NCBI GenBank assembly: GCA_039024555.1
Contig: JBCCQQ010000036.1
Coordinates: 1 to 61,528 of the forward strand
Origin: Cyanobacteria bacterium P01_D01_bin.156
Lineage (GTDB): Bacteria; Cyanobacteriota; Cyanobacteriia; Phormidesmidales; Phormidesmidaceae
Reading direction: 5' to 3'
DNA: 61,528 nucleotides
This document shows positions 24,001-27,000 of this stretch, one piece after another. Made by a program: the position numbers. How positions within the stretch are numbered: position 1 is the stretch's first letter; every line of letters starts with the position of its first letter.

Positions 24001-27000
24001 TGACCACTGGTGTACTTAGTTTCATAGTCATAAAAATCAGCTGCAAAGCTAATTTCACCGATGACGGATGCTTTAGGGTTGTCATTCCCTAAAACAGCAC
24101 ATTCAACTTCACGGGCAACCACACTCGCTTCTACAATAATTCGGCGATCGTAGCTGGCAGCATTATCCAGTGCAGCTTCAAGTTCTTGACGATCCTTGGC
24201 CTTTGCAATACCCACGGACGATCCTAAGTTTGCTGGTTTGACAAAGCAGGGATAACCCAGAGCTGCTTCGATATCGTCGCAGAGTTTGGGAAACACACAG
24301 GGGTTAGAGTAAACTTGCGATCGCAAAACCTCCAGATATTTCACCTGAGGCAAACCTACCTTTGCAAACGCAGACTTCATGGCTAGCTTATCCATACCCA
24401 CCGCAGAAGCAAGCACGCCACACCCCACGTAGGGAGTTTGCATCAATTCAAACAGCCCCTGAATGGTCCCGTCTTCACCATTAGGACCATGGAGCACAGG
24501 AAACCAAATATCCACATCCACGTCTGCAGGGGGAATACGGTTGGTTGCAGAAACTGGATCATCACCAAAACTCAACGGCTCTCCATCAGTTAACACCGCC
24601 TCAGCATTTGTCACCCAAACACCATCTTTTCGGATATAAACGGGGATGATCTCATACTTCTCAGCATTACCCTTTAGCCTCAATCCTCGGGCAATCGCCT
24701 GGGCGGAGTAAATGGAGACCTCATGCTCCCCAGAACAGCCCCCAAACAGTAAACCGACACGAATTTTTGCCATTAAGTTACCCCTTTAACGCCCTAAAAT
24801 GCTGTTTGCCAATTCCTCAGGAAACATAGCTAACCGTCAAAATATCATTAATGAATGGTCCTCTGTTGACTATTCGTAACAATTTTCGGTCCATGGGCCA
24901 TTACTTAACCACCAAGAATGGTAACGCTCTCAGAACTGTAGCCAAGGTAGGATAAGACTTCATCGGTTGACTGGCTCAGCACGCGCCCCCATGGGCAAAA
25001 AAAAACTCCCAAGCTCCAAAAGAGCCCAGGAGTTAGACATCAGGGTGCATCTACCAAATAACTGTCCACAGCACGACATCTAACTTCCGGACAGAACAAA
25101 AAATCTATATCATCAATAACGAACTGCATTCAGTGCAACACTTACTCCATCACATTTATTATCTAAATCTTTGCTTGCAAGTCACGTTTTGAGTCATAAC
25201 TGCAACAGAACAAAAAAAGACCCCTAAGCTCCAAAAGAGCCCAGGAGTCAGACATCAGGGTGCATCTACCAAATAACTGTCCACAGCACGACACCTAACG
25301 TCCGGACAGAACAAAAAATCTACCTGGAGTTACGGACTGTGCTCATCAGCTCAAAAAAACCATCAAGATTGTAGAGTTGGCGTGAAAAAACGAACATGAC
25401 CAGAGATAATGCCATTGGAACTTTGACCTGAAGCCAAATCTGTGAAGTATTTTTTCTTGTCCGATGGCTGGACCACTGGCAGGGTATGGGAATTCGGCGG
25501 CCTGTGGAACGAACTTGCCTGGCAGCGCAAACCCATCATTAAAAAACTAGAACTCTATATCGAGGAAGCTAGTGAAAAATTATGGCTTTATCAGGTTGAA
25601 GACGCTGTCCTCATGGTTGAAGTCATGCCTGCAGGAGCAACCAGCAATTCTATTGGGCAAGTCGTCCTTAAACGACTGATTTCCGCTGAGCAAGTCATTG
25701 AAAAGCTTTGTGAGACAACGATTTCAACTTCAGTTGTCGTATCTATCCCGGTCAAGTAACTCAACGACCTTAGAGCAACGAGCACATTAGAATTAAAGTC
25801 CTCAGCCGCTCGCCATATCCCCCTGGCAGGCCACAGGTACCCAGCCCTGCAACCTGCGCAGAGCGACCTAAAGTGTTGCCCTGAGATTACTAACCGCCCG
25901 TTGCAAAGAGGCCAATGCTCGGTTGTAACCTAACGCCGCACTTACCCAATTACCCTCTGCTTGTGTTAATTCAGACTGAGATGTCAATACATCCAACTGT
26001 GTGCCGACACCAGCATCCAGTCGCAAATTGGCTAGTTCTAGAGCTGTAGATGCCTGTGTAACTGCGGTACGTGCTGTCCTAACATTTTCCTCATTGGCTC
26101 GGAGCGTGAAGTAAGCTTGCTCAACTTCAAAACGGATCAGATCTAGCTGTTCAGAATAACGTTCTTCGGCAATCTCAGCATTCAATTCCTGCTGACGTGC
26201 ACTAGCACGGGCCGCTCCACCATCAGCAAGGACCATATTGAACTCAACCCCAAATGAAAATTCTTCCCCAGCACCAATATCAAAGGAATCATTATTATTG
26301 TCATCAATGAGATCGGTCGAGAGAGTGCGGTACTGAGCGAACAGATTGACTTGAGGACCATTGGCAGCTCGAATAGCCCGAGCTTGCTGCAAACCAATCT
26401 CCCGTTGAGCCAACTGCTGCTCAAGTTCAACCCGACTTTGAAAAGCGAGCAAAATACTATCTTCTAAGGTTAAACTCCAGCGTTCGTAAGTATCTTCCCA
26501 ACTATCTGGAGCGGGGACTGGGGTAGCGTTTAAATTTATGGTGGATGGGATATTGAGTAATCGGGCCAAGTTTCGTCGAGCAATTCGTTGCTGAGACTCG
26601 GACTGAATTAAGTCTTGCTGAGCGTTGGCTAACTGTACATCCGCACGCAGTACATCAAAGCGAGTACCGACCCCAGCCTGACGACGCAACTCATTATCTC
26701 GCTGATTTCGTTGCGCCTCTTCTACAAATGCCTGGTTAATTCGTATTTGTTCACCACTTTCTTGGAGGTCGTAATAAAGGCTTGTGGTATCCAATCTCAG
26801 CTCTTCACGCCGCCGTTCTACCTCAAGCTCATTCAAACGAACCTGTTCTTTGGCCGCTCGGACATTAGCAAGACGCTGACCTGACGTAAAAACGTCATAT
26901 TCAGCCCGTAAGGGAATTATGCTCAAAGCGGTAGCAGTACTAGTCCCGTCAGGATCTCCAGTTAACAAACCAGATGACGTAGTTCTAGTCACATTTGCGT

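What a model noticed while it worked through the whole genome (the two positions that open the first line are those of the whole stretch)
24998..25331. Multi-copy NsiR1 sRNA genes with DIF1-type promoters in a non-heterocystous cyanobacterium
The genome holds six (rna.tsv) to seven (genome search) Rfam-grade copies of NsiR1, the 'heterocyst-specific' HetR-dependent small RNA of Nostoc, two pairs in tandem, and each of the six inspected has a TCCGGA or TCCTGA hexamer at about -35 to -30, the place and sequence of the DIF1 motif that marks heterocyst-specific promoters. I read this as an NsiR1/DIF1 regulatory module that pre-dates heterocysts and works in undifferentiated filaments (perhaps with the HetR gene g05113), so that heterocyst development co-opted an older nitrogen-stress circuit. 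It would move the origin of a key developmental sRNA and its promoter code outside the heterocystous clade and offer DIF1 promoters as parts fo [...]
Evidence so far: rna.tsv: NsiR1 (RF02399) at C17:81635-81688 and 81762-81815 (+), C36:24998-25056 and 25213-25271 (-), C39:43932-43986, C45:39897-39949, 46-62 bits, gathering 39; search_genomes counts 7 matches in G000. All six share the 5' end TGGTAGATGCACCCTGAT and end in a hairpin + U-run; the upstream 60 nt show TCCGGA (C36 x2, C39) or TCCTGA (C17 x2, C45) at -35..-30 or -34..-29 counted from the Rfam match start. Of heterocyst-linked names only hetR (g05113), hesA and two DUF4335 genes were found; that the family is filamentous and non-heterocystous is recalled. 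149 of 150 genomes of the family have 1-12 NsiR1 matches over the cut-off whereas 53 of 173 have nifK, so the sRNA is tied neither to heterocys [...]
(Added by a program. Inside this text positions count along the whole contig: contig position 1 is position 1 of the stretch shown here. "Call 12" and the like, gene names such as g00115 and contig names such as C1 are that model's own, and its searches are not shown. The text may have been shortened before it was handed on; [...] marks where a part breaks off. The agent that wrote the report below was given it as the finding of a first reader that could run no searches.)

Follow-up and report, generated by a model that had tools for sequence, protein, structure and literature searches.

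The report
Ancient small RNA tuning HetZ sigma
These are real genes for NsiR1, a small regulatory RNA known from heterocyst-forming cyanobacteria, here in a relative that most likely makes no heterocysts; the copies carry binding sites for the two developmental regulators HetZ and HetR, and the RNA is predicted to pair with messenger RNAs of that same regulatory circuit, a feedback loop that could be tested in the laboratory.

Summary
Observation confirmed. The window holds two tandem NsiR1 genes; the genome holds six above the Rfam cut-off and a seventh below it. All six carry a full sigma-HetZ promoter, DIF1 being its -35 (PMC13342950). NsiR1 outside heterocyst-formers is already in print (11 genomes in a 2016 supplement; Limnospira 2021), and this scan found it twice before on other DNA.

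Two things were not found in my searches. (1) The seventh copy, behind gatB, has a different promoter: a HetR box over the -35 region plus an extended -10. Of 151 genomes, sigma-HetZ-type copies occur in the same 42 that have hetZ; HetR-box copies in 30, all with hetR. HetR-less families keep one copy without a box (36 of 72 genomes). (2) The invariant 5' core is complementary to the start region of hetZ' (9 of 12 families in the top 5%) and of the anti-sigma gene patU (31 of 39 loci in the top 1%); four control genes show nothing.

Best reading: an old sRNA feedback arm of the HetR/HetZ/PatU circuit. Pairing, expression and nitrogen control are untested, and the patU site is weak in most of this genome's family.

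The parts
25213..25271 (-). NsiR1 gene, first copy of the tandem pair (class A, sigma-HetZ promoter)
   Evidence: Rfam 49.5 bits
25301..25306 (-). DIF1 / sigma-HetZ -35 element TCCGGA of the first copy
   Evidence: consensus from PMC13342950
25280..25283 (-). sigma-HetZ -10 element (TGnA) of the first copy, 17 nt after the -35 and 8 nt before the start
25254..25271 (-). invariant 18-nt 5' core, proposed pairing (seed) region
   Evidence: identical in 6 of 6 class A copies; 298 of 341 collected copies share its 16-mer exactly in a search allowing 3 mismatches
25219..25249 (-). intrinsic terminator hairpin of the first copy
24998..25056 (-). NsiR1 gene, second copy (class A)
   Evidence: Rfam 56.3 bits
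25086..25091 (-). DIF1 / sigma-HetZ -35 element of the second copy
25065..25068 (-). sigma-HetZ -10 element of the second copy
25039..25056 (-). invariant 18-nt 5' core of the second copy
25004..25034 (-). intrinsic terminator hairpin of the second copy
23712..24773 (-). ddl (D-Ala-D-Ala ligase), downstream neighbour; context only
   Evidence: same neighbour in 4 other loci
25442..25759 (+). 105-aa ORF of no known family, divergent neighbour; context only

Best explanation
The window carries two of six sigma-HetZ-transcribed copies of NsiR1, a trans-acting sRNA of about 55 nt with an invariant 5' seed and a variable terminator. A seventh copy behind gatB has the same core under a sigma70-type extended -10 promoter with a HetR box over the -35 region. 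So the RNA takes input from both activators of the HetR-HetZ circuit. Shown here: the genes, both promoter types, and their match to hetZ and hetR across genomes. Inferred: the seed base-pairs with translation-start regions inside the same circuit, hetZ' (second sigma-HetZ; the most widely kept site) and patU (anti-sigma; strong in Nostocaceae and several other families, present in this genome), and lowers their translation. This tunes the sigma to anti-sigma ratio: blocking PatU is positive feedback on sigma-HetZ, blocking hetZ' damps the paralogue. The loop is older than heterocysts; the hetF-linked array and the alr3234 target known from Nostoc are additions of some lineages. Odds: genes and sigma-HetZ promoters 0.95; box is a HetR site 0.85 (repression or activation about even); at least one of hetZ'/patU a true target 0.62.
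For: Promoter A: 149 of 153 class A copies among 221 distinct copies from an exact-core scan have both elements; present in 42 of 151 genomes, the same 42 that have HetZ over the cut-off; a HetZ ChIP peak covers nsiR1(1-12) in PCC 7120 (supplement of PMC13342950). Promoter B: 30 of 151 genomes, all among the 43 with HetR; 21 of 21 HetR-positive genomes outside the Nostoc-containing family f7, 9 of 22 inside; 38 of 41 in the own family. G117 has HetR, no HetZ, and only a class B copy. GGG-N5-CCC is the HetR site (PMC4649674); positions I did not select on (T after GGG 53 of 63, final C 59 and A 56 of 63) match the published hetP consensus (PMC4192349). In two families with no HetR found (0 of 21, 0 of 51) 14 and 22 genomes keep one copy, none with the box (read by eye). 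Targets: hetZ' start region in the best 5% of this genome's genes in 9 of 12 families under a fixed start rule, against hetR 0 of 13, HetZ-related-2 1 of 12, the gene divergent from hetZ 0 of 10, argJ 0 of 5; 28 of 29 hetZ' leaders of the own family at or below -12.5 kcal/mol, background -7.2 +/- 2.3; the site varies in length and in the bulged base while keeping the pairing. patU: 31 of 39 loci in the best 1%, up to 15 of 16 bases complementary; where the site lies in the last hetZ codons, the Ala codon keeps the pairing base in 17 of 18 and 11 of 11, against 8% and 1% of other four-fold columns reaching 90%. NsiR1.4 overexpression in Nostoc gives heterocysts on nitrate and earlier commitment (PMC9045159); loss of patU3 gives extra heterocysts (PMC12288457).
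Against: No pairing, transcription start or expression was measured. The targets were found after looking at about seven gene families, with seed length and windows partly chosen afterwards; families share ancestry, so combined z-scores overstate; the background came from this genome only and no genome-wide comparative screen was possible. In a plain scan of this genome hetZ ranked 2832, patU 127 and hetR 219 of 5140, and the best trans hits were no better than those of shuffled cores. The patU site is absent in three families (f6, f15, f16) and reaches -15 kcal/mol in only 3 of 20 further loci of the own family (some starts were mis-picked). It also overlaps a conserved sigma-HetZ promoter spacer, the patU ribosome site and hetZ codons, and transcripts from that internal promoter would lack it. 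The core is kept unchanged in genomes without HetR (and, in the four such genomes tested, without HetZ or HetZ'), so this circuit cannot be its only job; HetZ-related-2 is not a target there. The class B box sits 27 nt before the -10, whereas the HetR-activated hetZ promoter has 31. None of the 26 HetR ChIP regions in PMC4192349 is described as an sRNA locus (I could not place the class B copy in PCC 7120).
Confidence: 0.62

Rival explanations
1. Real NsiR1 genes under sigma-HetZ and HetR, but the invariant core is a protein-binding motif (sponge or chaperone-bound RNA) or pairs with some other mRNA or sRNA. The hetZ' and patU complements are then incidental or relics of the RNA's origin.
For: The core stays invariant in 36 of 72 genomes without HetR; copy number is high and variable, as for sponges; NsiR1 is enriched in the CLIP of the RNA-binding protein PatR (PMC11797042); the core can form a small 5' hairpin.
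Against: Two separate sites in one circuit, with four control genes negative; base-pairing action is proven for NsiR1 in Nostoc (PMC9045159); the hetZ' site fits the class A 5' end (9 of 12 families) and not the class B end (1 of 12).
Confidence: 0.27
2. The hetZ' leader motif is a DNA element (weak HetR-like GGT-N5-ACC site or promoter part), and the patU match comes from overlapping promoter, ribosome-site and coding constraints. NsiR1 then regulates only lineage-specific targets such as hetP-like genes.
For: In some families the motif reads as a short palindrome; HetP-family genes exist in non-heterocystous relatives, including one of the same genus; TCCGGA-N17-TGAA is kept before patU even where the complement is lost.
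Against: The motif lies 0-15 nt before the ATG and changes length between lineages; promoter spacers are otherwise free; no HetP-family gene was found in this genome and its hetF orthologue has no NsiR1 beside it, yet it keeps seven copies.
Confidence: 0.08
3. The repeats are inherited or mobile repeats, or encode a tiny peptide (the core contains ATG-CAC-CCT-GAT), and are not functional sRNA genes here.
For: No expression evidence is available for this organism.
Against: Promoter elements and core are kept while spacer and hairpin diverge; the core shows almost no third-position change (298 of 341 identical; the commonest variant changes Pro to Leu) and what follows it differs between copies.
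Confidence: 0.03

Closest known systems
NsiR1 of Nostoc/Anabaena sp. PCC 7120 (Rfam RF02399; PMC9045159, PMC4030482)
   Same: 5' core, about 55-60 nt, terminator, several copies each with its own DIF1 promoter
   Different: Here the copies lie at five places, not in an array at hetF; no hetP-family gene found; host lacks the HglE-type synthase; an extra copy with a HetR box, which none of the papers I saw describes
sigma-HetZ regulon (PMC13342950)
   Same: TCCGGA-N16/17-TGNA-N7-9 promoter, tolerated change at the fourth base (TCCTGA), hetZ-patU pair, hetZ' paralogue, patX-hetR under such a promoter
   Different: Described for Anabaena; in the parts I read the network has no sRNA arm acting on hetZ' or patU
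HetR-bound promoters of hetP and hetZ (PMC4649674, PMC4192349)
   Same: GGG-N5-CCC with matching flanks
   Different: Sits on an sRNA gene behind gatB, 27 nt before the -10 rather than 31 as at hetZ; sign of control unknown
sRNA feedback on sigma-factor circuits and discoordinate operon control such as Spot 42 on galK (recalled, not from a call)
   Same: An sRNA blocks the ribosome site of an internal gene of an operon, or feeds back on its own sigma factor
   Different: Unrelated sequence; a working analogy only
RNA162 of Limnospira indica PCC 8005 (PMC8400943)
   Same: NsiR1-like 57-nt RNA, expressed in a non-heterocystous filament
   Different: Noted in passing; no promoter or target analysis in the passages I read

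Membership tests
NsiR1 (RF02399) | Covariance-model score above 39 bits over the full model | tested here: met
   56.3 and 49.5 bits; six copies above, the class B copy below at 32.1
NsiR1 (RF02399) | Own DIF1 promoter for each copy | tested here: met
   6 of 6 class A copies; not met by the seventh
NsiR1 (RF02399) | Intrinsic terminator, about 60 nt | tested here: met
NsiR1 (RF02399) | Tandem array upstream of hetF, one copy antisense to its leader (Nostoc arrangement) | tested here: not met
   hetF orthologue on C19 with no copy there
NsiR1 (RF02399) | Induced by nitrogen removal, HetR-dependent, cell-type specific | not testable with these tools
   no expression data for this organism
sigma-HetZ-dependent promoter | TCCGGA-N16/17-TGNA-N7-9-start, and hetZ in the genome | tested here: met
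   same 42 of 151 genomes
HetR-bound promoter (class B copy, C34) | GGG-N5-CCC with hetP-like flanks, kept only with hetR | tested here: met
HetR-bound promoter (class B copy, C34) | HetR binds it and changes transcription | not testable with these tools
   needs EMSA or a reporter
Trans-acting base-pairing sRNA on hetZ'/patU | Conserved complement at the translation start, beyond control genes | tested here: inconclusive
   met for hetZ' and for patU in 8 of 11 families, weak for patU in most of the own family; found post hoc
Heterocyst-forming cyanobacteria (host) | HglE/PfaA-type glycolipid synthase; place within the Nostoc-containing clade | tested here: not met
   TIGR02813 below the cut-off here, above in 2 of 2 f7 genomes; GatB groups with Phormidesmis-labelled records, outside that clade (quick tree of one gene)

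The most novel reading that the evidence does not exclude
NsiR1 is a missing post-transcriptional arm of the core cell-fate circuit of filamentous cyanobacteria. One seed is expressed from two separately wired gene classes (sigma-HetZ copies, and an old gatB-linked copy under HetR). It blocks translation of the anti-sigma PatU and of the paralogue hetZ', making a switch that existed in non-heterocystous filaments, was reused for heterocyst commitment, and lost its HetR box wherever hetR was lost.
Probability: 0.45. Interest if true: 0.8.

Novelty: new variant of a known kind. Interest (0 to 1): 0.6.

Why it matters
What hetR, hetZ and patX do in filaments that make no heterocysts is stated as open (PMC11298460). 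The two known NsiR1 targets do not fit this genome, so they do not explain why its 5' end is frozen across the class. Named, conserved sites on hetZ' and patU and a HetR-box promoter give point mutations to test in two tractable strains (PCC 7120, Leptolyngbya BL0902). If right, the recently drawn HetR-HetZ-PatU circuit gains an RNA feedback step, the overexpression phenotype gains a second explanation, and the class B box offers a compact HetR-responsive part. If only the promoters hold, the result is a modest extension of a known family.

Tried and rejected
No RNA holder was listed for window 23700-26200, so no reads were laid; this is no evidence on expression. The supplements of the Trichodesmium transcriptome paper (PMC4143802) gave no hit for the expected coordinates or the name (table format unknown). 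A single-genome target scan gave nothing beyond shuffled cores (the top hit was the C45 copy's own antisense overlap with a doubtful ORF start). hetR, HetZ-related-2, argJ and the gene divergent from hetZ were rejected as general targets; a few f7 and f5 HetZ-related-2 leaders and some f7 hetR leaders do pair well. hetZ itself is a moderate candidate only: shuffled-core test 0 of 80 better, but 1-3 of 12 families in the top 5%, near-perfect in f4, weak in this genome. My first look at patU missed the site because the window began at the hetZ stop; one search corrected this. A peptide reading and an argJ-leader reading (argJ follows in 13 of 30 class B loci, not in this genome, and class B forms tandem arrays) were rejected. 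The claim that the HetR-to-hetZ link is new in heterocyst-formers was not made: the strict box is in 17 of 21 f7 and 0 of 20 other hetZ loci, but a variant motif occurs in f2, f9, f15, f16. The careful GatB tree did not finish; the quick tree was used. No structure, complex or covariance-model jobs were run.

Full report
1. Observation. Rfam finds two full NsiR1 matches on the minus strand of the window, 24998-25056 and 25213-25271, a 112-nt repeat at 215-nt spacing between ddl and an unknown 105-aa ORF. The genome has six matches above the gathering score and one below. All six share an 18-nt 5' end and read TCC[G/T]GA, 16-17 nt, xGxA, 8 nt, start. That is the published sigma-HetZ consensus TCCGGA-N16-17-TGNA-N7-9-T, in which the fourth base may vary (PMC13342950). 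The pattern has 611 hits in 13.2 million positions of this genome, and the spacers of the four unlinked loci agree in only 1-8 of 16 bases, so both elements are kept by selection and not carried along with a repeat.

2. Host. It has hetR with a patX-like gene (four RGSGR repeats) and a sigma-HetZ-type promoter before it, hetZ followed by a patU-like gene (named by position and recall; no family hit), hetZ' and HetZ-related-2. It has two nif clusters. No PfaA/HglE-type synthase passes the cut-off, whereas 2 of 2 genomes of the Nostoc-containing family f7 have one. A quick GatB tree puts it with Phormidesmis-labelled records outside that clade. It is most likely a non-heterocystous diazotroph. 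Its hetF orthologue is on C19 with no NsiR1 beside it, and no HetP-family gene was found (5 of 5 control genomes positive, one of the same genus). The two Nostoc targets therefore do not apply here.

3. What is already known. Table S3 of PMC4734099 lists NsiR1 homologues in 38 of 89 genomes, 27 of them heterocystous; the first columns marked include Trichodesmium IMS101, Arthrospira 8005 and Microcoleus FGP-2. PMC8400943 reports an expressed NsiR1-like RNA in Limnospira. PMC11298460 reports hetR, hetZ-patU and a predicted DIF1 promoter in Leptolyngbya BL0902. A review still ties NsiR1 to heterocyst-formers (PMC6596454). Two earlier findings of this scan report NsiR1 in non-heterocystous hosts, tracking HetZ or HetR.

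4. Three promoter classes. Among 65 loci whose record names I take from memory as non-heterocystous, the first copy is A in 41, B in 21, other in 3. Class B has GGG-N5-CCC at -38..-28 and mostly an extended -10 (TGnTAnnnT). GGG-N5-CCC is the HetR site (PMC4649674). Unselected flanks match the hetP consensus of PMC4192349: T after GGG in 53 of 63 and the final C and A in 59 and 56 of 63, with one mismatch (C, not A, after CCC). The seventh copy of this genome is class B, and its box is the best hit in the genome of a matrix built from other loci (29.7 bits, next 21.8). Class B lies behind gatB in 22 of 30 loci and before argJ in 13.

In one draw of 151 genomes (57 from one family that lacks everything): NsiR1 above cut-off 42, class A 42, HetZ 42, the same genomes; HetR 43; class B 30, all HetR-positive, 21 of 21 outside f7 and 9 of 22 inside. 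The extra HetR genome, G117, lacks HetZ and has only a class B copy. The own family has class B in 38 of 41. In two families where HetR was not found (0 of 21, 0 of 51), 14 and 22 genomes keep a single copy with the extended -10 and, by eye, no box; three such copies checked lie behind gatB, three others do not. Kin are not independent, but the box follows hetR and the class A promoter follows hetZ without an exception in these samples. The box covers the -35 position, 27 nt before the -10 against 31 at the HetR-activated hetZ promoter, and HetR-less copies keep the same -10, which leans slightly to repression.

5. What the core may do. A scan of this genome alone was uninformative. Comparing start regions across families gave two signals. 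(a) hetZ' (alr0202 in PCC 7120, a second sigma-HetZ; PMC13342950): 0-15 nt before the ATG lies a non-coding motif complementary to the first 13 nt of class A RNA, usually one base short at a varying place. Under a fixed rule (best of the first three starts; 1500 genes of this genome as background) it is in the best 5% in 9 of 12 families; hetR 0 of 13, HetZ-related-2 1 of 12, divergent gene 0 of 10, argJ 0 of 5; with the class B 5' end 1 of 12. In the own family 28 of 29 leaders reach -12.5 kcal/mol (30 loci, one without an ATG dropped; best of three ATGs). (b) patU: the 16 nt before its ATG are up to 15 of 16 complementary to the core. 31 of 39 loci are in the best 1% (41 held, 2 without a usable window): 17 of 20 in f7, all of f2, f3, f9, f11, f22, this genome, 1 of 3 in f4, none in f6, f15, f16; both RNA classes can pair. 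Where the stretch is also the end of hetZ, the Ala codon keeps the pairing base in 17 of 18 and 11 of 11, against 8% of 119 and 1% of 86 other four-fold columns. Against: in 20 further loci of the own family only 3 reach -15 kcal/mol, and the stretch is also a promoter spacer and a ribosome site. hetZ itself is a weaker candidate.

6. Mechanism. Shown: genes, promoters, distribution. From papers: sigma-HetZ reads DIF1 and binds the nsiR1 array; PatU3 inhibits it; NsiR1 represses by pairing over start codons; its overexpression favours differentiation. Inferred: sigma-HetZ makes class A RNA, HetR sets class B RNA, and the seed lowers PatU translation from the hetZ-patU message (positive feedback) and hetZ' translation (damping). 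In PCC 7120 patU is split and an internal promoter bypasses the site, so the effect on PatU3 there could be small. The core's survival without HetR and HetZ means that an older target or a protein partner remains unknown (one search excludes HetZ-related-2 in f8).

7. Literature coverage. Ten searches: NsiR1, hetZ, target; NsiR1, patU. In the listings and in the passages I read, none names hetZ' or patU as an NsiR1 target or describes a HetR-box copy; most listed papers I saw only as listings. Seen: PMC13342950 (parts 1, 2, 4, section 6, passages, supplement searches), PMC9045159 (parts 1-2, Discussion, passages), PMC4030482 (first third), PMC4192349 (passages, section 5), PMC4734099 (passages, Table S3 rows); passages only of PMC8400943, PMC7761841, PMC11797042, PMC11298460, PMC6596454, PMC4649674, PMC7377430, PMC12288457; PMC4143802 (supplement search only). 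Not seen: Ionescu 2010, Brenes-Alvarez 2020, Elhai and Khudyakov 2018, Videau 2014, Hou 2015, Mitschke 2011; their target lists or supplements may anticipate part of this.

8. Verdict. A new variant of a known kind.

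Noticed in passing
G000 C59:15039-21519 and C71:19652-26226: Two separate nitrogenase gene sets, each with nifD/K-like genes and one long frame holding two further domains (fused nifEN-like, name recalled), in a genome without heterocyst glycolipid synthase.
   Followed up: no
G000 C88:5388-7016: patX-like gene (82 aa, four RGSGR repeats) before hetR, with a sigma-HetZ-type promoter.
   Followed up: partly
L206-L245, upstream of hetZ: The strict HetR box before hetZ is in 17 of 21 f7 loci and 0 of 20 others; a variant AGGGT-N8-ACCCA followed by a -10 is in f2, f9, f15, f16; nothing in this genome.
   Followed up: partly
L206-L245, 5' region of hetZ: A conserved motif TGTTAGGGT shortly before the hetZ start region in most families; it could pair with the second half of the NsiR1 core.
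   Followed up: no
G000 C5:126983 and C90:7779: HetR-box-like sites upstream of two paralogues of a secreted-looking repeat protein family (at least three copies); candidate HetR regulon members.
   Followed up: no
window 23712-25271; L046, L060, L071, L112: Class A copies sit just upstream of ddl on the same strand in several lineages; read-through could tie a cell-wall gene to sigma-HetZ.
   Followed up: no
L082, L085, L095, L117, L140: Class B copies form their own tandem arrays (up to 7 in a Scytonema record), each unit with its HetR box or a decayed one.
   Followed up: partly
G000, whole genome: 43 CHAT-domain matches, many clustered on C75, C12, C10 and C7.
   Followed up: no
window 16994-21203: glnA and an apcF-like gene (named from recall of the translation, not scanned) lie about 4-7 kb from the pair; no link tested.
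   Followed up: no
L159:4275-4616 (G000 C34:51174-51515): 113-aa protein of no Pfam or NCBIfam family directly downstream of the class B copy.
   Followed up: no
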